Below, in pieces: positions 37,718 through 46,648 of a stretch of DNA of 64,000 nt. The position numbers were made by a program, and so were the translations under genes. This DNA comes from Nitrospinaceae bacterium (GTDB taxonomy: Bacteria > Nitrospinota > Nitrospinia > Nitrospinales > Nitrospinaceae). The stretch lies in contig OZ245011.1 in assembly GCA_965223665.1 (NCBI GenBank), forward strand, positions 1,856,001 through 1,920,000, read 5' to 3'. Within the stretch, counting starts at the first letter, position 1; every line of letters starts with the position of its first letter. The notes beneath the pieces are model-generated. The model did not search any database. It had not been told where the DNA came from and saw only the letters and a list, made by a program, of their open reading frames with translations.

Positions 37718-37722
37718 TCCAT

Positions 37723-39467
37723 TCAATACCCTAGCGTGAGGGCGCCGGGTTTGCGTGGATCCGACGCGCCAAAAAACATTCCCTTCCGGCGAACAATCGA
37801 TTGCGACGATCCCATTGCGTTTTTCTCCACGAGGTTGTGCCCCATTTGTTTTAAGCGTTCCAGCGTGTCGGGACTCAACCCCTTCTCCACCCGAAGCTCA
37901 TCCGGAATCCACTGATGATGAATCCGCCTCGCATGTGTGGCTTCGGCGATGTTCATTTTATGATCGATCACGTTAATGAGGATTTGCAACACGGTATTAA
38001 TAATGCGCGGACCTCCCGGACTGCCGGTCGCGAGAAACGGTTTACCATCTTTGAGAACAATCGTAGGTGACATGGAACTGAGCGGACGTTTTTTGGGGTG
38101 AATCGCGTTGGCTTCTCCGCCAACCAGACCAAAGCCATTCATCGCTCCCGGTTTGGCAGAAAAATCATCCATCTCATTATTCATTAGAATCCCGGTACCT
38201 TCTGCAACAATACCGGACCCGAAACTAAAGTTAAGGGTGGTGGTATTGCTCACCACATTACCGAACCGGTCCATCACCGTAAAGTGCGTGGTCTCATCGC
38301 TCTCATAACGGCTTGGCGTTCCCGGACGAATTTCAGATGAAGGTCGCGCCTTCTGTGGGTCAATAGTACTCCGCAGTTGCCGCGCATACGTTTTGGAAAG
38401 CAGTCCTTTCGTCGGAACCGTCCACCAGTCGGGATCTCCTAAAAATTTACTGCGATCGGCAAATGCCAGCTTCATCGATTCCGCCATCAGGTGCAATACG
38501 CTGGAACTGTTCGGTCCCATGGCTGCCAAAGGATAACCCTCCAGAATGTTCAGCATTTGAATGATGTGAATGCCGCCGGAACTGGGAGGCGACATGCCGA
38601 TGACTTCATAACCGCGATACGTGCCGCGAACCGGCTCTCGAACCGCAATGTGATAATTTTTCAGATCTTCTTTGGTGATCAGTCCCCCGTTCTTTTCCAT
38701 AGAAGCTACAATTTTGTCGGCAACAGCTCCTTCATAAAACGCTTTCGGTCCATGCTCCGCAATCTGCCGTAACGACCACGCCAGATCCTTAAACACCATG
38801 CGTTCTCCCACCTGATACACCGATCCATCCTCTTTATAAAAATCCGGCGCGTTTCCGGCCACCGCTGCAATCGTTTTTTCCCATTGGAAAACGTGAACAC
38901 ATGATCTTTGTTAACTACGAGACCTTCCTCAGCGATTTTAATGGCAGGCGCCATGACACGCTTCAGCGAAAACGTCCCGTACTGTTTTAAAACATGCGCC
39001 AGCCCGGCCACCGAACCCGGAACTCCTATCGCCAGGAAACTGTATTGAGATAATTCGGAATCGACCTGCCCTTCTTTGTTCACGTACATATCCACCGTAG
39101 CTTTGAGCGGTGCCATCTCACGGTAATCGATTGCCACAGTTTTGCCGGTGTCCGCGAGGTGCACCAGCATGAATCCTCCACCACCCAGATTGCCCGCGCG
39201 TGGTAACGTGACCGCCAGCGTGAACGCCACTGCCACCGCCGCATCCACCGCGTTGCCACCGTCCTTAAGAATTTGCACACCGACCCGAGTGGCGATGGCC
39301 TCCTGACTGGCCACCATTCCCTGTGCCCCCGTAACCGGATGCACCACATCCTTCTGCGAATAAATCGCACTTTGCTGAGCCTCTGCAGAAACCGAAAACA
39401 AAAATGTAAAATGAAGCGCTAAAAAAACATCAAATATGGTTTTAGAACGAATCATAGTATTTCTCAA
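37723..39467 (-). pseudogene. ggt: second periplasmic gamma-glutamyltransferase, single -1 frameshift
   Basis: ORFs 38706..39467 and 37723..38862 join if one T is added to the T5 run (A5 at 38838-38842); close paralog of 27318..29054. Confidence 0.8.
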
Positions 39468-39625
39468 ACGAAGTTCATACTACCCATGCAACCAAAACAG
39501 GCTTTCAATTAATAACACAAAATCACACCTTTTTAATTATATGGTTTTTTAGTTGGGCGTTGTATAAGTTTATTAGGGGTGTTAAGATTGCACCACAACT
39601 TTCCTCTTCTATATAGGAGGCACTT

Positions 39626-40114
39626 ATGTCAGGCCGAAATATTTTTATTCTTATTTTGGTGGCTATCGCAGCAGTGACTGGGTTGTTTTTGTCCGGGACC
39701 ATAGACCGTGTATTGTTTAAAAAAAGCGACGATGGGACCACTCTGGAAATCGATAAAAAATCTACGGAACCCGCAAACCACAAAGCCCCAACTTCAACTC
39801 CATCGACATCCACAACAATCACCAGTGAAAACAATGAAGGCATCATTCAGTCCGGCTCCGGTAACCAGGCCACCATCACTAACAACGATAATATAAACAT
39901 CGGAGATAACACCTCCGGCAACATTAATATTAACGGCAATCAAGTGGGAGACATCACTGGCAATACAGGCTCGATCCATGTGGGCGACAGCTTTGGCGGT
40001 GACAAAGTGATGGGCGACAAAATTGTCGGCGACACTCACATCAGCGGTAACGAAGTCAACGTGATTGAGGAAAACAAAGGCACTGTCAACATTGGTGGAA
40101 TTGAGTCTAAGTAA
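39626..40114 (+). CDS. membrane-anchored Asn/Gly/Ile-rich putative amyloid/beta-solenoid protein
   Basis: GGAGG RBS; N-terminal TM; Pro/Thr/Ser linker; NNEGIIQSGSGNQATITN and GDKVMGDKIVGD repeats. Confidence 0.8.
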   Translation: MSGRNIFILILVAIAAVTGLFLSGTIDRVLFKKSDDGTTLEIDKKSTEPANHKAPTSTPSTSTTITSENNEGIIQSGSGNQATITNNDNINIGDNTSGNININGNQVGDITGNTGSIHVGDSFGGDKVMGDKIVGDTHISGNEVNVIEENKGTVNIGGIESK

Positions 40115-40133
40115 TCCAGGGAACCACTGAATA

Positions 40134-41561
40134 ATGAAATCGTTACCACTCACTTCCTTATATATATACCTGCTCATCAGTTTGGTCTTATGTGGAACGC
40201 CGGGCCTTGGTCACGCTGAGGATAACTTCACTCAAATTAAAACACTGGCCAGCAAAAATATAAACAACGAAGGGATAATTCAGGAAGGAAAAGGCAACCA
40301 AGCGACCATTCACAATTTCAATGTAGACACACCGGAAGGATACGAAAGAAGTCCTGAAAAAAAAGAGAATAATCGCAACCGCGGGATCATTCAGCAGGGG
40401 GATTACAACATTGCCACGATTTACAATTTTAATATTGGAATCTCAGTCGAGGATTACGAGAAGGGTCTTCGCATTCAGCAAGCTAACTTTCAACAGCAAC
40501 TCAAAAACCTTCGACTCGACGAAAAACAAAAAGAATTAGAACTAAACGCAAGTTTGATGGCAGTCAACAAAAAACTATCCAATGTAAAAGCATCCTATGA
40601 CCAAACAGTTATCGAATTAAAAGCCACCAATAATGAATTGATCAAATTTAAAGATCAGTTATCCACCGAGGAATTAATCACCGCCCATGAAGCCTTGGAA
40701 AAGGGCGATACCCAACTAGCCAAGAAATTATTACAAACTGTAGCGGATAAAAGAGAAATACTGATTGAAGAAACCGCCAGCATTTATTTTCGACTGGGAA
40801 AACTGAATTTTGATGAAGTAAATTATCGTGAATCGTTGGAGAACTTTGAACGCGCGTCACAACTGGCCCCTGGAAACGCAGGGTATTTAAACGATACCGG
40901 CTTTCTATTTTACACCCTGGGTAATTTCGATGAAGCCATTCATTATTATGAAAAAGCCCTTAAGAAAGATTTTAAAAATTTCGGAGAGGATCATCCTCTG
41001 ATTGCCACACTTTGGAACAATCTGGGATTAGCCTGGCACAGCAAAGGCTACTATGATCAAGCCATTGAGTATTATAAGAAAGCCTTGGAAAGCGATCTCA
41101 AAAACTTTGGTGAGAATCATCCCAACGTTGCCATACGTTGGAACAACCTGGGATCGGCCTATGAGAGAAAAGGAGAACCCAATAGAGCAATTGAGTATTA
41201 TAAGAAAGCCCTGGCTATCAATCTCAAAATCTTCGGTAACACTCACCCCAATGTTACCACCAGTTGGAACAATCTGGGAACAGCCTGGCAGGCCAAAGGT
41301 AACCACGACAAAGCCATTGAGTATTTCGAAAAAGCCTTGGAAAACAATCTCAAAATCCTTGGCGCTGGGCACCCGCATGTAGCAGGAGCATGGAATAATC
41401 TGGGGGTAGCATTTGGTTTTAAGGGCGACTATGATAAAGCCATTTCTTATTTCGAAAAAGCCCTGCAAGCAGTCCAAAAAATGGGCTTAGAACATCGAGC
41501 TCTATTAATTAAACAAAACATCGAATTTTTAAAACTTCTAAGTTTAATTCCTCCGGAATAA
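40134..41561 (+). CDS. exported TPR protein with two N-terminal curlin-like motifs and a coiled coil
   Basis: Signal peptide; NEGIIQEGKGNQATIHN and NRGIIQQGDYNIATIYN; 42-aa TPR units WNNLG.A...KG....AI.YY.KAL...HP. Confidence 0.9.
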   Translation: MKSLPLTSLYIYLLISLVLCGTPGLGHAEDNFTQIKTLASKNINNEGIIQEGKGNQATIHNFNVDTPEGYERSPEKKENNRNRGIIQQGDYNIATIYNFNIGISVEDYEKGLRIQQANFQQQLKNLRLDEKQKELELNASLMAVNKKLSNVKASYDQTVIELKATNNELIKFKDQLSTEELITAHEALEKGDTQLAKKLLQTVADKREILIEETASIYFRLGKLNFDEVNYRESLENFERASQLAPGNAGYLNDTGFLFYTLGNFDEAIHYYEKALKKDFKNFGEDHPLIATLWNNLGLAWHSKGYYDQAIEYYKKALESDLKNFGENHPNVAIRWNNLGSAYERKGEPNRAIEYYKKALAINLKIFGNTHPNVTTSWNNLGTAWQAKGNHDKAIEYFEKALENNLKILGAGHPHVAGAWNNLGVAFGFKGDYDKAISYFEKALQAVQKMGLEHRALLIKQNIEFLKLLSLIPPE

Positions 41562-41804: not shown

Positions 41805-42023
41805 ATGAACCCAAACAAATCTATTATGGCGCATTATATTTCGACAACCTGTCCGCTTTGCGGAGCGACCACCAGTCTGGATGTCCCCAGGCAGCAAAGT
41901 CGGTTTCCCAGGAGCATCATCCGAATCCTCTGCCGCAGTTGTGGATTCCGTAAGGAATTCTTCATGCACCAATCCCCTATATATAGGAACCAACCCGTGA
42001 TTGAAAAAAGGGAATGGCTTTAG
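41805..42023 (+). CDS. small zinc-ribbon protein
   Basis: CPLC ... CRSC. Confidence 0.55.
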   Translation: MNPNKSIMAHYISTTCPLCGATTSLDVPRQQSRFPRSIIRILCRSCGFRKEFFMHQSPIYRNQPVIEKREWL

Positions 42024-42183: not shown

Positions 42184-43497
42184 ATGAAAAGGCTACTTCT
42201 TGCCTCACTATGGGCTATTCTCATTCTATTTTGCAGCGAAACATCTTTCGCTAGAACCGTCACTTTAATCACGCCGAAAGATACGTACGTCCGTTCTACA
42301 GCTCCCACAAAAAACTACGGCACCGAACCGCGAATGATTGTCGACGGAGTCAGCCTGGACCCGGAGACCCGAACGTTTGGCGAAGTCGCCGGCTTGTTGC
42401 AGTGGGATGTGTCTTCCATTCCGGTGTACTCCATTGTCGACTCAGCTAAAATCACTCTGCGTTTGTACAATTCCAGTTCCGGCGTGTATCACATTTTTGA
42501 ACAAATCGGATCGTGGAGCGAAAAGTCCGTAACCTGGGATGATTTTTCTCCGGGAAGTACTCCCCTCGGTTCCATCCCGGCTAATCGAAGCGGTCCGGTT
42601 ACCATTGAACTTAACGATGACGGGATAGCTCTGGTGCAAGGTTGGATCGATGGGACTTTAGACAATAACGGTTTCGCCCTTCGCGCCGGGGGCACCAATG
42701 ACGGCATCGGATTGCACACCAAGGAAGGTTCCATCGATTTTGCAAAACTTAAAATTTCGTTTTCAGATGGGCCCGCCACCATTGAACAACTTCAGGGAGA
42801 AATCAATCGACTGAGTGCACTGCTTGCCGGACTTCGCAGAAAGGGAGACACGCTTATTTTCGAAGGCATGAACGTTCAAATTGTGAATGGGTATGGCGCC
42901 ACCAACGGACACCCCGGACAAAAAGACGAACTGTCACCTTTAAAAACCAATGTCAATGGATTAGGCAACCTCATTGTCGGTTACAACGAAAAAATAGATA
43001 CAGATTCGTTCGAGGATTTCTTAGACGAGGATTCTGTGTTGTCGGACAAAACCGGCTCTCATAATATTATCGTAGGACATGGCCACAATTATTCAAGTTT
43101 CGGCGGCCTGGTGGCCGGCTGGGATAATATTGTATCGAGTCCATATTCTACAGTGAGCGGAGGCAAATACAATCACGCCAGCGAATTCTGCTCTACGGTC
43201 GGTGGCGGATTCCTCAACGTCGCCAGTGGAGATTACTCGGCGGTCAGTGGCGGTTACCAGCAGATTGCCAGTGGAGACAACTCCAACGTGAGCGGAGGAT
43301 TCCGTAACAAGGCCACCGGATTTGCTTCGCATGTTAGTGGCGGATTTTCCAACATCGCCAGCGGGGAAAGATCGAGTATCAACGGAGGCATCGCCAACAA
43401 AGCCTTTGGAGAAAACTCTACCGTCAGTGGAGGCGGCCACCGGGAAGCCTCCGGAGAAAACGATTGGGTGGCCGGCAGTTTGTATGAGAAAGAATAG
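42184..43497 (+). CDS. secreted DNRLRE(CBM96)-like domain + 15-aa beta-solenoid repeat protein, paralog 1
   Basis: Signal peptide, DTYV..PTKNYG, LLQWDVSSIP, LVQGW, NNGF; coiled coil; GLGNLIVGYNE; 8 repeats; DWVAGSL. Confidence 0.85.
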   Translation: MKRLLLASLWAILILFCSETSFARTVTLITPKDTYVRSTAPTKNYGTEPRMIVDGVSLDPETRTFGEVAGLLQWDVSSIPVYSIVDSAKITLRLYNSSSGVYHIFEQIGSWSEKSVTWDDFSPGSTPLGSIPANRSGPVTIELNDDGIALVQGWIDGTLDNNGFALRAGGTNDGIGLHTKEGSIDFAKLKISFSDGPATIEQLQGEINRLSALLAGLRRKGDTLIFEGMNVQIVNGYGATNGHPGQKDELSPLKTNVNGLGNLIVGYNEKIDTDSFEDFLDEDSVLSDKTGSHNIIVGHGHNYSSFGGLVAGWDNIVSSPYSTVSGGKYNHASEFCSTVGGGFLNVASGDYSAVSGGYQQIASGDNSNVSGGFRNKATGFASHVSGGFSNIASGERSSINGGIANKAFGENSTVSGGGHREASGENDWVAGSLYEKE

Positions 43498-43730: not shown

Positions 43731-44957
43731 ATGAAACGAATTACATGTTTTTTAACTTTAATCGCATTGCTACTGACCAGTACATCTGCATGGGCGGTGG
43801 TAGATTCATTTTCCAGTCCGCAGGATAGTTACGTACGCCAAAGTTCTCCGGCCATGAATTATGGATCCGAAAATGTTCTTATCGCAGATGGTATCAGTCA
43901 GGATCCCGACAACGGATTGTACGGCGAAGTCGCAACACTTATCAAATGGGATCTATCCAGCATACCTTCTGGTTCTAATGTCACTGCTGCTTCCATCACT
44001 CTGGATTTTTTCAATTCCAGTGGCGGCACTTATAACATATTGCAACAGCTCAACGCCTGGAACGAAAACTCGGTGGACTTCACGGATTTATCCACTTCAG
44101 GCACAATCCGTGGAATCATTCCTGCTGGAAGCAGCGGCGTAGTCAAAATTCCTTTAAACGCCAGCGGGATCGCTTTAGTGCAAGGTTGGATCGATGGCAA
44201 CATTGACAATAATGGATTTGCTATTCGCACCTCCGGCACTAACGACAGTATTGGTATGGACTCGCGAGAATCTTCCGGAATGGCACCGACATTAGAAGTG
44301 GATTATGAAGGGGCTGTCCTGACCCTGGAAGAACTCACCGCCAAGGTTCGCGAATTTGAAGAACTCTTTGAAGGAATCACCCGATCCGGATCTAACATTT
44401 TTATCACCGGTGCCAATGTGCATATACGCAACGGCCTGGGATCAACAGATGGCAGCGATAGCTCCAATCCTCCACGAACCAATGGACTGGGGAATTTAAT
44501 TGTTGGTTATAATGAACCGCCTCCCTGCCCTCCGGCAACTATATGTTTGAATCGGCTCGGTTCGCACAATGTGGTCATTGGTCCCGAACACACCTATACC
44601 AGTTATGGAGGTTTGATAACTGGAGACCGAAACAGAATCACAGATATTTACAGTGTGGCGGTTGGAGGTTTTCTCAATCAATCCACCGGTGCTTATTCAG
44701 GCACGTTCAGTGGTTCCGGCAACCAGGCGACGGGAAATTTTTCCACAGTTACCGGTGGAGCCAGTAATACCGCAAGCGGCGGTACCTCTCATATCAGTGG
44801 CGGACGGCAAAACAACGCCACCGGTGGATTTTCCACTGTGAGCGGCGGACGTGAAAACACTTCTTCCGGAAACTCTGCAACCGTCGGTGGTGGATTTCAA
44901 CGAAGTGTTAACGGGTTCGACGACTGGAGAGCTGGCAGTTTATTTGAAACTCAATAA
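43731..44957 (+). CDS. secreted DNRLRE-like + beta-solenoid repeat protein, paralog 2
   Basis: Same architecture; 7 repeats; DWRAGSL. Confidence 0.85.
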   Translation: MKRITCFLTLIALLLTSTSAWAVVDSFSSPQDSYVRQSSPAMNYGSENVLIADGISQDPDNGLYGEVATLIKWDLSSIPSGSNVTAASITLDFFNSSGGTYNILQQLNAWNENSVDFTDLSTSGTIRGIIPAGSSGVVKIPLNASGIALVQGWIDGNIDNNGFAIRTSGTNDSIGMDSRESSGMAPTLEVDYEGAVLTLEELTAKVREFEELFEGITRSGSNIFITGANVHIRNGLGSTDGSDSSNPPRTNGLGNLIVGYNEPPPCPPATICLNRLGSHNVVIGPEHTYTSYGGLITGDRNRITDIYSVAVGGFLNQSTGAYSGTFSGSGNQATGNFSTVTGGASNTASGGTSHISGGRQNNATGGFSTVSGGRENTSSGNSATVGGGFQRSVNGFDDWRAGSLFETQ

Positions 44958-45206: not shown

Positions 45207-45334
45207 TTGACAAGCCCTGAAATTTAATATCGAGTCTAAAGCAGTTCTCATGAAATGTTGTTTAAGATGAATCTCTTTAAATATTTTCCTTTCAATTTTT
45301 TCAAATAACTAATCCTTATTCAGTGGGGGGAACT

Positions 45335-46648
45335 ATGAAAAATAATATTAGAGCAATTCTAATTTTTTCATTTTTACTTTTAAGCGGTTACAGTTACGCA
45401 CAAACCACAGTGAGCTTTCAAGATGGGGTGTCACCCGATGCAGGGTACACCGGGACACAAGACAGTTATGGTCGGAGCACATCTCCCGGCGCAAACTATG
45501 GCAGTGACAATACTATAATTTCTGACGGGGTGGCGCAGGATCCGGATAACGGTCTTTTTGGAGAAGTTGCCGGAATCGTCAAATGGGACATTTCATCAAT
45601 TCCGGCATCCGCCACCGTAACCAGCGCTTCGATAACGGTGAATCTGACCAATAACAGTTCTGGCGCTTATAACTTTTTGCAGCAAACCGGAGCCTGGTCG
45701 GAAGGTTCAGTTACCTGGAGCGACTTTAATTTTGGAGGCGTTATTCTGGGTACCATTCCCGCGTTTGCTTTTGGCAGCACGACGGTCAATTTAAATGCTT
45801 CAGGGATTGCACTGGTTCAAGCCTGGGTCGATGGATCAATAGCTAATGATGGAATCCTGGTTCGGCATGGAGGGACTAACAACAGTATTCAATTTGAATC
45901 TACAGAGTCAGGCGGTAACTCCCCCATATTAGAAGTAACTTATACAGGAGGAACCCAAACCTTGGAAGAGCGAGTGGCGTTTTTAGAAGCTCTTTTGGCC
46001 GGCGTGATGCGCAATGGAAATAAGATAGTGTTCGATGGATTGAATGTTCAAATTACTAATGGTTTAGGTGCCACTAATGGCAATCCAGGTAATCCGGACA
46101 GCGACACCACCACTGAAGTTAATGGTTTAGGTAATTTGATTGTGGGTTATGACGAAGACATTAATCCTTACAATGTAGATGGAACACCGTTATCAAACAA
46201 AAGTGGTTCACACAATGTGATCATCGGTCACGGGCACAACTACAGCAGTTTCGGTGGCTTTGTGGTTGGCCAGGATAACATAATCAGCGATTCCTACGCC
46301 AGCGTCAGTGGGGGAAATCAAAATACTGCAAGTGGAATCTGGTCCAGCGTCAGTGGTGGATTTTTCAATACTGCAAGCGCAAGCAGGTCCAGCGTCAGCG
46401 GGGGAGAACGAAATACGGCAAGTAGCCCTCAGTCCAGCGTCAGTGCTGGACTTCGCAATACTGCAAGTGGAATCGGTTCCAGTGTCAGTGGGGGAATAGA
46501 TAATACTGCAAGTGGACCTAATTCCAGCGTTAGTGGGGGAGATAATAATACTGCGAGCGGAACAGAATCCACCGTGAGTGGAGGGGAAAGCAGATCGGTT
46601 ATTGATACCCATGACTGGAGAGCAGGCAGTTTATTTGAAAATAATTAA
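45335..46648 (+). CDS. secreted DNRLRE-like + beta-solenoid repeat protein, paralog 3
   Basis: Same architecture; FQDGVSP..Y.GTQD N-terminus; 8 repeats. Confidence 0.85.
   Translation: MKNNIRAILIFSFLLLSGYSYAQTTVSFQDGVSPDAGYTGTQDSYGRSTSPGANYGSDNTIISDGVAQDPDNGLFGEVAGIVKWDISSIPASATVTSASITVNLTNNSSGAYNFLQQTGAWSEGSVTWSDFNFGGVILGTIPAFAFGSTTVNLNASGIALVQAWVDGSIANDGILVRHGGTNNSIQFESTESGGNSPILEVTYTGGTQTLEERVAFLEALLAGVMRNGNKIVFDGLNVQITNGLGATNGNPGNPDSDTTTEVNGLGNLIVGYDEDINPYNVDGTPLSNKSGSHNVIIGHGHNYSSFGGFVVGQDNIISDSYASVSGGNQNTASGIWSSVSGGFFNTASASRSSVSGGERNTASSPQSSVSAGLRNTASGIGSSVSGGIDNTASGPNSSVSGGDNNTASGTESTVSGGESRSVIDTHDWRAGSLFENN
46301..46585 (+). repeat. 45-bp tandem coding repeat (6 full units plus a partial one)
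   Basis: AGCGTCAGTGGGGGA-N6-AATACTGCAAGT-N9-TCC encoding SVSGGxxNTASxxxS. Confidence 0.9.

What the first reader, a model, noticed from the sequence alone, without database searches (positions are those of the whole stretch)
39626..41561. Adjacent membrane protein and exported TPR protein share a curlin/RHIM-like motif: candidate extracytoplasmic amyloid nucleation or signalling pair
Seen: ORF 39626 has a TM anchor, a linker and NNEGIIQSGSGNQATITN (from nt 39830), followed by N/G/I/D beta-arch repeats including GDKVMGDKIVGD. The next gene (19-nt gap) has a signal peptide, then NNEGIIQEGKGNQATIHN (from 40263) and NRGIIQQGDYNIATIYN (from 40377), a coiled coil and TPR repeats. Established: QxGxxNxA is the curlin (CsgA/CsgB) repeat core and resembles RHIM (IQxGxxN). 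In fungal and bacterial NLR systems a receptor and the adjacent effector share an amyloid motif and signal by templating. Inference: the TPR protein could sense or oligomerise and nucleate the membrane partner. There is no NACHT/NB-ARC domain, both proteins look exported, and no csg genes are in the window, so this architecture does not fit the systems I know.
Basis: partly seen in the sequence, partly recalled or inferred. Interest (0 to 1): 0.85.

Follow-up and report, generated by a model that had tools for sequence, protein, structure and literature searches.

The report
Matched-motif membrane protein and TPR pair
Two neighbouring genes of a Nitrospinaceae bacterium, a small membrane-anchored protein and an exported coiled-coil/TPR protein, carry the same short glycine/asparagine-rich tag, and they belong to a genome-wide set of such tagged proteins that looks like a bacterial amyloid-signalling system without its usual ATPase and apparently outside the cytoplasm.

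Summary
P1 (39626-40114) and P2 (40134-41561) share an 18-residue motif. The strict pattern occurs 3 times in the whole genome, all here, against 0.00026 expected. The copies are 15/18 identical in protein but only 67% in DNA, so they are old and under selection.

P1 is not a lone oddity. Its tail carries three motifs (A, B, C). A matches P2. B and C match the N-termini of other coiled-coil/TPR_12 paralogues, a small protein (S195) and a Peptidase_C14 caspase, encoded 160-225 kb away in three operon-like clusters. A related GDK-repeat tag links cytoplasmic paralogues to an adjacent NACHT protein and an iSTAND protein.

Best reading (0.45): homotypic beta-arch docking or templating motifs, working like BASS/HET-s amyloid signalling and closest to Bab/Agp. 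Here there is no NTPase, the TPR partners have Sec-type signal peptides, and one membrane protein acts as a multi-motif hub.

Curlin and RHIM membership fail. No P1/P2 orthologue was found anywhere, and the same-genus genome has other genes in this slot. Amyloid formation, binding and topology are untested. This scan noted a similar NTPase-free coiled-coil/TPR layout in a cyanobacterium (e1-4215412), which I did not check.

The parts
39615..39620 (+). AGGAGG Shine-Dalgarno, 5 nt before the ATG of P1
   Evidence: read from the sequence
39626..40114 (+). P1, 162-aa small protein: N-terminal hydrophobic helix, P/S/T-rich linker, N/G/I-rich tail with motifs A, B and C
   Evidence: ORF. No family at Pfam, NCBIfam or PADLOC cut-offs. 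Its only relatives are paralogues in the same genome.
39635..39703 (+). P1 residues 4-26: transmembrane anchor, or a long uncleaved signal sequence
   Evidence: AF2 helix 4-26, and the only part of the model with pLDDT above 70. Orientation is not settled.
39830..39883 (+). P1 motif A (NNEGIIQSGSGNQATITN)
   Evidence: 15/18 identical to P2 copy A1, with 9 synonymous codon differences.
39935..40027 (+). P1 motif B (GNQVGDITGNTGSIHVGDSFGGDKVMGDKIV)
   Evidence: Matches S195, Casp564, T574, T703 and T534 elsewhere in the genome.
40040..40096 (+). P1 motif C (ISGNEVNVIEENKGTVNIG)
   Evidence: 17/19 identical to the N-terminus of T525 (C1:2119865), with 12 synonymous codon differences.
40134..41561 (+). 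P2, 475-aa protein: signal peptide, motif A twice, helical (coiled-coil type I) region, TPR_12 array
40134..40217 (+). P2 residues 1-28: Sec-type signal peptide (n-region MK, hydrophobic core, G-H-A then E-D)
   Evidence: Read from the sequence; inference, no predictor was run. Six paralogues have the same kind of N-terminus.
40263..40316 (+). P2 motif A copy 1
40374..40427 (+). P2 motif A copy 2, 19 residues after copy 1
40434..40814 (+). P2 junction (IGISVEDYEK) and helical region, homologous to the type I coiled-coil region of 6 paralogues
   Evidence: Alignment A2, 28-38% identity to P2. 3.6-residue periodicity.
40776..41498 (+). P2 TPR_12/TPR_10 repeats
   Evidence: Pfam TPR_12 9.1e-52 in 5 stretches; TPR_10 1e-32

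Best explanation
P1 and P2 are one unit of a lineage-specific network of 'address-tagged' proteins. Short N/G/I-rich beta-arch motifs act as homotypic docking or templating elements that bring together proteins carrying the same tag.

P2 is exported. It probably oligomerises through its helical region and presents two copies of motif A next to a TPR_12 ligand-binding array. P1 sits in the membrane and carries one copy of A, which stacks onto P2's copies. P1's motifs B and C do the same with other exported coiled-coil/TPR proteins, with the small protein S195 and with a caspase-like protease. P1 is therefore a membrane hub.

In logic this works like bacterial amyloid signalling pairs (Bell/BASS-NLR, and most closely Bab/Agp). 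It differs in having no NTPase and no Bell domain, and in a predicted location outside the cytoplasm.

Shown: motif sharing, selection on it, adjacency, the paralogous network and its domain partners. Inferred: export, binding, beta-arch stacking, the direction of signalling and the outcome.
For: (1) Motif A occurs only in these two adjacent genes: 3 hits against 0.00026 expected.

(2) The peptides are conserved while synonymous sites have diverged. P1-A against P2-A1 is 15/18 aa, 67% nt, with 9 synonymous codon differences. P1-C against T525-C is 17/19 aa with 12 synonymous differences. P1 B-C against S195 is 43/59 aa with 22 synonymous and 16 non-synonymous differences. The copies are therefore not recent duplicates or conversions.

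(3) P2's best-scoring motif partner among 20 other tagged segments is P1 (76, next 38). T574b and the adjacent NACHT669 are reciprocal best partners at 117.

(4) The layout repeats in operon-like clusters with 0-19 nt gaps or 4-nt overlaps. These are S195 [B+C] - T525 [C] - T574 [B]; T703 [B] - Casp564 [B + Peptidase_C14, 5.8e-19]; T574b [GDK] - NACHT669 [GDK + NACHT, 1.8e-11]; and iSTAND385 [GDK + iSTAND, 2.7e-5] with a MoxR-like ATPase.

(5) These partner domains are the ones reported with BASS motifs and in NTP-dependent conflict systems. CHAT/caspase, alpha/beta-hydrolase and NACHT are named in Dyrka 2020 section 9. [quoted passage not shown]

(6) The tail of P1 is N 18%, G 20% and I 15%, with no P, L or R and with K depleted. 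It has beta-like periodicity. This is the bias described for BASS motifs.

(7) P1 and P2 are co-oriented and 19 nt apart, with a strong RBS. No terminator-like site lies between them on the + strand.

(8) The cassette is accessory. In the same-genus genome G001 the flanking GGT and CBM96 genes are syntenic at 84-89% nt, but the slot holds three unrelated ORFs. GC is 0.38-0.44 in the cassette against 0.45-0.55 in the flanks.
Against: No P1 or P2 N-terminal relative was found outside this genome. This covers the 5.8-billion word searches; the exhaustive phmmer run, where 4 hits comprised 3 own-genome proteins and 1 unrelated repeat protein; 41 relatives, with best foreign E 0.04; and the metagenome scan, with 224 pattern matches and 0 confirmed. 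Pairing is therefore not shown to be conserved across genomes, and no covariation test across species was possible.

Purifying selection on each copy for its own self-assembly would also keep paralogous motifs alike.

Motif B does not discriminate clearly between adjacent and non-adjacent partners. T574's best match is P1, not its neighbour S195, and Casp564's best is S195, not its neighbour T703.

P1 has no recognisable effector domain.

P1's orientation is ambiguous: 1 K/R before the helix and 3 K/R plus 3 D after it. If its tail is cytoplasmic it cannot meet an exported P2.

The AF2 monomer gives no fold for the tail, pLDDT below 50, so the beta-arch structure is an inference from composition.

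No PADLOC defence family fits.
Confidence: 0.45

Rival explanations
1. Static docking scaffold. The motifs are permanent beta-strand-augmentation 'plugs', functionally like cohesin-dockerin. They tether periplasmic coiled-coil/TPR scaffolds and a protease to a membrane anchor (P1). There is no triggered templating, prion-like switch or cell-death outcome.
For: This reading uses the same sequence evidence as the best explanation. P1 has no effector domain and carries three different tags in series, as a hub or anchor would. This genome has many other exported TPR_12 proteins, including lipoproteins at C1:2044397-2054762. That suggests ordinary envelope roles for the fold.
Against: Related tags sit on a NACHT, an iSTAND and a caspase. 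These are the signalling and death domains of conflict systems, not of envelope scaffolds. The cassette is accessory and differs within the genus, which is unusual for structural envelope complexes.
Confidence: 0.25
2. Similarity by descent only. Each motif is a homo-oligomerisation neck (a beta-layer in front of a coiled coil, or a self-assembling tail). It was spread by module shuffling among paralogues. P1 and P2 do not touch each other.
For: The motifs directly abut a conserved junction (IGITLEEHH or IGITLAEHK) at the start of the helical region in 14 paralogues. Many paralogues have a tag but no tagged neighbour: T759, T732/T677, T497/T436 and T534, and G001's 474-aa protein. Selection for self-assembly alone would conserve each copy.
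Against: P1 and S195 carry the tags without any coiled coil. Near-identity of a tag across different proteins, at about 66-70% nt identity with mostly synonymous change (17/19 and 15/18), is more than independent self-assembly requires. Motif A exists only in the two neighbours. NACHT669 and T574b, which have unrelated domains, share 117-score tags and are adjacent.
Confidence: 0.17
3. Common sorting or recognition signal. The tags are read by a third component, such as an export, anchoring or processing machine or a protease, and not by each other.
For: In the exported members the tags sit immediately after the predicted signal-peptide cleavage site. A caspase-like protease belongs to the set.
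Against: Cytoplasmic paralogues carry related tags. P1 has three different tags in one chain. No dedicated machine is encoded next to any cluster.
Confidence: 0.06
4. Curli-like extracellular fibre. P1 and/or P2 would be subunit and nucleator of a secreted amyloid fibre, like CsgA/CsgB.
For: The core Q-x-G-x-x-N-x-A is present in all three copies, and the location is predicted to be extracytoplasmic.
Against: No Curlin_rpt match for P1 or P2 at E<=1, nor anywhere in the genome, while the E. coli control rings. There are only 1 and 2 units instead of a five-repeat array. CsgG-like matches are weak, partial and about 240 kb away. P2 is mostly TPR.
Confidence: 0.03

Closest known systems
Bab/Agp antiphage system with BASS11 (Ibarlosa et al. 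2024, bioRxiv 10.1101/2024.11.07.622273; abstract and section 4 read)
   Same: Both have adjacent collinear genes. Both have a small protein with an N-terminal hydrophobic helix and an amyloid-type motif. In both, the partner has the same motif at its N-terminus followed by TPRs, and the partner is not an NLR.
   Different: Agp also has GreA/B-C and PIN domains and is cytoplasmic, whereas P2 has a predicted signal peptide, a coiled-coil region and nothing after the TPRs. Bab has a Bell-related helical domain, whereas P1 has none and carries three motifs. The motif sequence is unrelated as far as can be told, because BASS11 letters are not in the text I read. There is no prophage or defence-island context here.
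Bell-domain / BASS1-10 - NLR gene pairs (Dyrka et al. 2020, bioRxiv 10.1101/2020.01.06.895854; abstract and sections 5, 7, 8, 9 read)
   Same: A motif of about 20 residues is shared by products of adjacent collinear genes with a very short gap. The composition bias is the same (N, G, Q, I, V up; P, L, K down). Pseudo-repeats occur on one side and a single copy on the other. Related motifs occur on caspase/CHAT, hydrolase and NACHT proteins.
   Different: This pair has no Bell domain and no NB-ARC or NACHT. The doubled motif is on the TPR side, whereas in the paper it is on the effector side. A signal peptide is predicted. The host is a Nitrospinaceae, not an actinobacterium or cyanobacterium. 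Membership in BASS1-10 could not be tested.
HET-s/NWD2 of Podospora (as described in Dyrka 2020 section 9; the rest is recalled)
   Same: Two pseudo-repeats separated by a flexible loop could form a two-rung beta-solenoid that templates a single-repeat partner.
   Different: It is fungal and cytoplasmic. The receptor is an NLR, and the effector has a HeLo pore-forming domain.
Curli CsgA/CsgB (Curlin_rpt PF07012)
   Same: It is an extracytoplasmic amyloid with nucleator-to-subunit templating, and it shares the Q-x-G-x-x-N-x-A core.
   Different: There is no profile match, no five-repeat array and no adjacent csgEFG-type genes.
RHIM (PF12721) / BASS3
   Same: Both contain an I-Q-x-G element within a short beta-arch motif.
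   Different: There is no profile match at E<=1. The third core position is S, E or Q here instead of a hydrophobic residue (RHIM consensus recalled).
Effector-associated domains and iSTAND/vWA-MoxR systems of NTP-dependent conflict systems (Kaur et al. 2020, eLife, PMC7159879; passages only)
   Same: A homotypic adaptor couples variable effectors to TPR or STAND modules. An iSTAND plus MoxR-like cluster in this genome carries the GDK tag.
   Different: The adaptors here are repeat motifs of 20-30 residues, not globular domains. The P1/P2 unit has no NTPase.

Membership tests
Curli subunits (CsgA/CsgB) | Match to the Curlin_rpt profile (PF07012) | tested here: not met
   No hit for P1 or P2 at E<=1. 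0 matches in the whole genome, while the E. coli control rings.
Curli subunits (CsgA/CsgB) | Tandem array of about five repeats (consensus recalled) | tested here: not met
   One unit in P1 and two in P2.
Curli subunits (CsgA/CsgB) | Linked csgE/F/G secretion genes | tested here: not met
   The only CsgG-like matches are 3 partial ones at C1:1.649-1.654 Mb. None is in the window. csgE and csgF were not searched.
RHIM | Match to the Pfam RHIM profile | tested here: not met
   No hit at E<=1 in the Pfam scan of P1 and P2. HMMER filters can drop weak hits.
RHIM | Core tetrad (I/V)-Q-(I/V/L/C)-G (recalled) | tested here: not met
   The copies read IQSG, IQEG and IQQG, so the third position is polar.
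Bell/BASS-NLR amyloid signalling pair | The same short motif on the products of adjacent collinear genes | tested here: met
   The gap is 19 nt.
Bell/BASS-NLR amyloid signalling pair | Effector with a Bell (or HeLo-like) helical domain and a C-terminal motif | tested here: not met
   P1 has only a TM helix, a linker and motifs. Motif A is internal and is followed by B and C.
Bell/BASS-NLR amyloid signalling pair | Receptor with an NB-ARC or NACHT NOD module | tested here: not met
   P2 has only TPR families. NACHT matches in the genome lie outside the window.
Bell/BASS-NLR amyloid signalling pair | Composition enriched in Q, N, G, V, I and depleted in K, P, L | tested here: met
   P1 69-160: N x3.4, G x2.8, I x2.0, V x1.3, K x0.4, P and L 0. 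Q is not enriched, x0.9.
Bell/BASS-NLR amyloid signalling pair | Match to one of the BASS1-10 (or BASS11) profiles | not testable with these tools
   The profiles and motif tables are in supplements and figures that I could not see.
Bell/BASS-NLR amyloid signalling pair | Motif forms amyloid or prion and cross-seeds | not testable with these tools
   This needs ThT, EM, ssNMR or prion assays.
Bab/Agp (BASS11) | Small protein with an N-terminal hydrophobic helix plus motif, and a partner with an N-terminal motif plus TPR | tested here: met
   compared with section 4 of the paper.
Bab/Agp (BASS11) | Partner carries GreA/B-C and PIN domains | tested here: not met
   The Pfam scan of P2 shows TPR-type families only.
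Bab/Agp (BASS11) | Location in a prophage or defence island | tested here: not met
   The neighbours are an ATP-grasp gene, GGT and CBM96 proteins. PADLOC gives only generic TPR hits.

The most novel reading that the evidence does not exclude
An extracytoplasmic amyloid-like signalling network. Several Sec-exported coiled-coil/TPR sensors and a periplasmic caspase-like protease would be wired to one membrane hub (P1) through three orthogonal beta-arch tags (A, B, C). Ligand-induced oligomerisation of any one sensor would template the hub and recruit the protease. This would be a periplasmic, NTPase-free counterpart of NLR/BASS immunity, running in parallel with a cytoplasmic GDK-tagged set (NACHT, iSTAND) in the same genome.
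Probability: 0.15. Interest if true: 0.85.

Novelty: new variant of a known kind. Interest (0 to 1): 0.6.

Why it matters
Amyloid signalling between a sensor and an effector is established in fungi and animals and has recently been reported in E. coli (Bab/Agp). All described cases are cytoplasmic, and most are driven by an NLR NTPase.

If this reading holds, three things follow:
- The principle also works without an NTPase.
- It can work outside the cytoplasm, where curli are the only well-known templated bacterial amyloid.
- Several orthogonal tags can be combined on one protein to build a network rather than a pair.

It would also give a small, testable set of natural orthogonal self-assembly tags, with three classes in one 100-residue tail. 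It would extend such systems to Nitrospinaceae, marine nitrite oxidisers that are not known as multicellular bacteria.

If the reading fails, the result is still a tidy example of module shuffling in an expanded TPR family.

Tried and rejected
- **Complex prediction.** P2 30-112 x2 with P1 58-102 x2 scored 0.07 and 0.11 against a mark of 0.34. The verdict was 'no answer', which counts neither for nor against binding.
- **AF2 monomers.** P1 has mean pLDDT 47.6 and only the TM helix is predicted. S195 has mean pLDDT 40.2. Both are too poor for a fold search, so none was run.
- **ESM Atlas.** No usable hit for S195. The best hit for P1 scored 0.75, below any useful level.
- **PDB sequence search.** Only chance-level hits, E 0.24 or worse.
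- **Word-index searches.** P1, the P2 N-terminus and the NACHT669 N-terminus found only themselves. The last of these cannot tell how widespread GDK tags are.
- **Sequencing runs.** No RNA holder is listed. One further DNA run holds fragments identical to the window, so there was no variant strain for a covariation test.
- **Metagenome scan with the motif A alignment.** 224 pattern matches, 0 confirmed.
- **Genome-contig scan with the coiled-coil alignment.** 228 pattern matches, 3 confirmed, all in one same-genus MAG.
- **Caspase homologues in the phylum.** 25 of 120 genomes have a match. In the 6 loci I read, the matching proteins have other N-termini and no tag.
- The likeness is therefore unquantified.
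- **Pentapeptide-repeat membership.** Considered for the GDK repeats and rejected. The 5-residue period is there, but there is no Pfam hit and no A(D/N)LXX pattern (recalled).
- **P1+P2 as a split gene.** Rejected. P2 has its own signal peptide and start codon.
Full report
**1. Observation**

The two ORFs are as described. P1 is 39626-40114 (+, 162 aa) and P2 is 40134-41561 (+, 475 aa), separated by 19 nt. P1 is preceded by AGGAGG five bases upstream of its ATG. Motif A is present once in P1 (nt 39830) and twice in P2 (nt 40263 and 40374/40377).

A strict pattern for the motif, G[IVL][IVL]Q.G..N.A.I.N, matches three times in the six-frame translation of the whole 4.35-Mb genome, and all three matches are these copies. 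Six-frame residue frequencies predict 0.00026 matches. The three copies share 12 invariant columns.

P1-A and P2-A1 are identical at 15 of 18 residues but only 67% identical in DNA. Nine of the 15 conserved codons differ synonymously. The similarity is therefore old and maintained by selection on the peptide. It is not a recent duplication or gene conversion.

**2. The two proteins**

P1 matches no Pfam, NCBIfam or PADLOC family at the cut-offs. AF2 predicts a single helix, residues 4-26, and leaves the rest without confident structure.

The tail of P1 (residues 69-160) is N 18%, G 20% and I 15%. It has no P, L, R, Y, W or C, few K, and beta-like hydrophobic periodicity. This is the bias that Dyrka et al. 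report for BASS motifs (section 9).

P2 has an N-terminus with the features of a Sec signal peptide: MK, a hydrophobic core, a P/G-containing c-region, and G-H-A followed by E-D. This is read and no predictor was available. After it come:
- motif A twice, separated by a 19-residue charged, proline-containing linker;
- a region of about 110 residues with 3.6-residue periodicity;
- five TPR_12/TPR_10 units, E 9.1e-52.

No NACHT, NB-ARC, PIN or other enzymatic domain is present.

**3.

Searching P1 against its own genome showed that its C-terminal half recurs in other proteins. Reading those loci gives the following picture.

The genome has at least 15 paralogues built as [N-terminal tag] - conserved junction (IGITLEEHH or IGITLAEHK) - helical region - TPR_12 array. 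They fall into two helical-region types (alignments A2 and A3). P2 belongs to type I.

P1's tail is three tags in series.
- **A** matches P2.
- **B** (GNQVGDITGNTGSIHVGDSFGGDKVMGDKIV) matches the N-termini of T574 (C1:2121451), T703 (C1:2058743) and T534 (C1:1842269). It also matches the caspase-like Casp564 (C1:2057052; Peptidase_C14, 5.8e-19) and the small protein S195 (C1:2119281).
- **C** (ISGNEVNVIEENKGTVNIG) matches S195 and the N-terminus of T525 (C1:2119865) at 17 of 19 residues, with 12 synonymous codon differences.

The clusters repeat the P1/P2 layout:
- S195 [B+C] - T525 [C] - T574 [B], with a 4-nt overlap and an 8-nt gap;
- T703 [B] - Casp564 [B], with a 4-nt overlap (one search lists the coordinates).

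All eight of these proteins have N-terminal hydrophobic segments. Seven look like cleavable Sec signal peptides, with basic n-regions and A-x-A-type sites followed by acidic residues (inference).

A second, related tag class of GDK(V/I)xGDK pentads is found on paralogues without signal peptides. It is also found on:
- a NACHT protein (C1:1683329; NACHT 1.8e-11) that directly abuts T574b, with which it is the reciprocal best tag match;
- an iSTAND protein followed by a MoxR-like ATPase and a 1381-aa TM/TPR protein;
- a tail-anchored 180-aa protein (TA180);
- the linker of a DUF900 hydrolase, in looser form.

Sixteen of the 21 family genes on contig C1 lie in 1.84-2.26 Mb, which is 9.9% of the contig.

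**4. Distribution**

The organism is a Nitrospinaceae. The nearest genome (G001, same genus by the tool's kinship) is titled 'MAG: Nitrospinaceae bacterium'.

The helical-region families occur in 11 of 120 Nitrospinota genomes for each type. There are 8 and 14 matches in G000 and 5 and 9 in G001. Elsewhere the homologues mostly have a plain N-terminal TM anchor. One, in G076, has a B-like GNITGTQGNVHVG.

P1, motif A and the exported B/C set were found nowhere else.
- The word-index searches found only the queries themselves.
- The exhaustive phmmer run over 1.84 billion representatives gave 4 hits. Three are proteins of this genome and one is an unrelated repeat protein.
- The best foreign hit among 41 relatives has E 0.04.
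- The metagenome scan confirmed 0 of 224 pattern matches.

In G001 the flanking GGT and CBM96 genes are syntenic at 84-89% nt identity. The slot between them holds three unrelated ORFs of 153, 326 and 187 aa. The TA180 orthologue is also missing from its otherwise conserved cluster. G001's 474-aa type I protein is cytoplasmic, has another tag and has no small partner. The P1-P2 cassette has lower GC than its flanks. P1/P2 is therefore an accessory, fast-turning-over cassette.

**5. Mechanism**

The best-supported reading is that the tags are homotypic docking or templating elements.

*Shown:* tag identity between neighbours; selection on the peptides across different proteins; operon-like linkage; and association of the tag classes with caspase, NACHT, iSTAND, hydrolase and small membrane proteins. 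That is the repertoire reported for BASS motifs.

*Inferred:*
- P2 is exported and oligomerises through its helical region.
- P2's two A copies form a two-rung beta-arch nucleus, HET-s-like. Here the doubled motif is on the TPR side, the reverse of what Dyrka et al. describe in section 9.
- P1's single A copy stacks on that nucleus.
- B and C connect P1 to further exported sensors and to Casp564.

The outcome is unknown. It could be membrane perturbation through clustering of P1, proteolysis, or mere scaffolding. I put 0.45 on motif-mediated hetero-assembly of the BASS kind, 0.25 on a static docking scaffold, 0.17 on similarity by descent with independent self-assembly, 0.06 on a common sorting signal and 0.03 on a curli-like fibre.

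*Weak points:*
- There is no cross-genome conservation of the pair.
- Motif B does not discriminate neighbours from non-neighbours. There is a small hint at one site: I-x-N-N in Casp564, T703 and T534 against I-x-G-[NT] in P1, S195 and T574 (sequences).
- P1's orientation is ambiguous, with 1 basic residue before the helix and 3 basic plus 3 acidic residues after it.
- By eye, P1's helix and juxtamembrane stretch resemble the N-terminal anchors of coiled-coil/TPR homologues in other genera, whose flanks suggest a cytoplasmic C-terminus.

If P1's tail is cytoplasmic, the P1-P2 contact fails unless P2's signal peptide is not functional.

**6. Comparison with known systems**

The closest is Bab/Agp (Ibarlosa et al. 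2024; abstract and section 4 read). There, a small protein with an N-terminal hydrophobic helix and a C-terminal BASS11 motif sits next to a non-NLR partner with N-terminal BASS11 and TPRs. P2 lacks Agp's GreA/B-C and PIN domains and P1 lacks the Bell-like domain. The location here is predicted to be extracytoplasmic.

Bell/BASS-NLR pairs (Dyrka et al. 2020; sections 5, 7, 8, 9 read) share the gene-pair logic, the short gap and the composition. The Bell domain and the NOD are absent here.

Curlin and RHIM membership fail on profile tests and on repeat number or core residue. Only the Q-x-G-x-x-N-x-A and I-Q-x-G resemblances remain.

BASS1-11 membership could not be tested, because the profiles and logos are in figures and supplements that I could not see.

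In the held library, a search for 'amyloid signaling' + periplasmic + TPR + bacteria returned one paper, on diversity-generating retroelements, seen as a listing only. I found no description of an extracytoplasmic or multi-tag version in the searches. This covers only that library.

It is an unchecked lead. It suggests that the NTPase-free coiled-coil/TPR class is wider than this genome.

**7. Verdict**

The feature is real and its reading is partly supported. It is a new variant of a known kind, matched-motif (amyloid-signalling-type) sensor/effector pairs. Three unusual traits are worth testing:
- predicted export;
- the absence of any NTPase;
- a single membrane protein that carries three different tags matched to different partners.

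Function, binding and amyloid nature are all untested.

Noticed in passing
window 37723-39467 (-): The gamma-glutamyltranspeptidase gene is split into two overlapping ORFs. One is 253 aa and covers profile positions 2-148; the other is 379 aa and covers 143-512. This is a frameshift, a pseudogene or an assembly error. G001 aligns at 86% nt across window 37722-39427.
   Followed up: partly
window 42184-43497, 43731-44957, 45323-46648 (+): Three tandem paralogues of secreted proteins have an N-terminal CBM96 domain (E 1e-10 to 1e-12) and C-terminal SGGxxNxASG-type repeats. One of them hits UspA1_rep and the antifreeze beta-roll family. G001 has many related copies.
   Followed up: partly
window 41805-42023 (+): A 72-aa ORF with two CxxC pairs (zinc-ribbon-like) is conserved in G001 at the syntenic place, L055 3653-3871. 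It overlaps a 105-aa ORF on the other strand.
   Followed up: no
G000:C1:1683329-1687063 (L012 2329-6063, -): A NACHT protein (669 aa) directly abuts a coiled-coil/TPR protein (574 aa). Both start with nearly the same GDKVGGDKVGRDK(I/V)V.NYNI tag. This looks like a split NLR whose NOD and TPR halves are joined by a tag. In G001 the TPR orthologue has a different downstream gene.
   Followed up: partly
G000:C1:1727436-1733799 (L013, -): A GDK-tagged iSTAND protein (385 aa), a MoxR-like AAA ATPase (351 aa) and a 1381-aa TM/TPR_12 protein lie in a row. The layout is like a vWA-MoxR-associated (VMAP) system.
   Followed up: partly
G000:C1:1.84-2.26 Mb: 16 of the 21 tagged-family genes on contig C1 lie in 9.9% of its length. 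The stretch also holds a row of TPR_12 lipoproteins at 2044397-2054762. It is a large island of TPR and conflict-type genes, and the window lies inside it.
   Followed up: partly
L017 (G000:C1:2245001-2254000): Two tandem GDK-tagged coiled-coil/TPR genes (732 and 677 aa) follow three ORFs that I read by eye as a DNA-methyltransferase fragment, a Vsr-like endonuclease and a 425-aa restriction-enzyme-like protein (no family scan was run on these ORFs). This would be a defence-island-like setting.
   Followed up: no
L055 (G001:C13:2546001-2551000): In the same-genus genome, the slot that holds P1-P2 contains three unrelated ORFs instead: 153 aa with a signal peptide, 326 aa with a TM segment, and 187 aa. 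This is a variable hotspot between conserved genes.
   Followed up: partly
L025, L026, L027, L030 (G105, G054, G016, G074): Coiled-coil/TPR homologues of other Nitrospinota genera begin with a TM helix followed by a K-rich juxtamembrane stretch and a P/S/T linker. By eye this resembles the first 60 residues of P1. If real, P1 kept the ancestral anchor of the family. It was not quantified.
   Followed up: no
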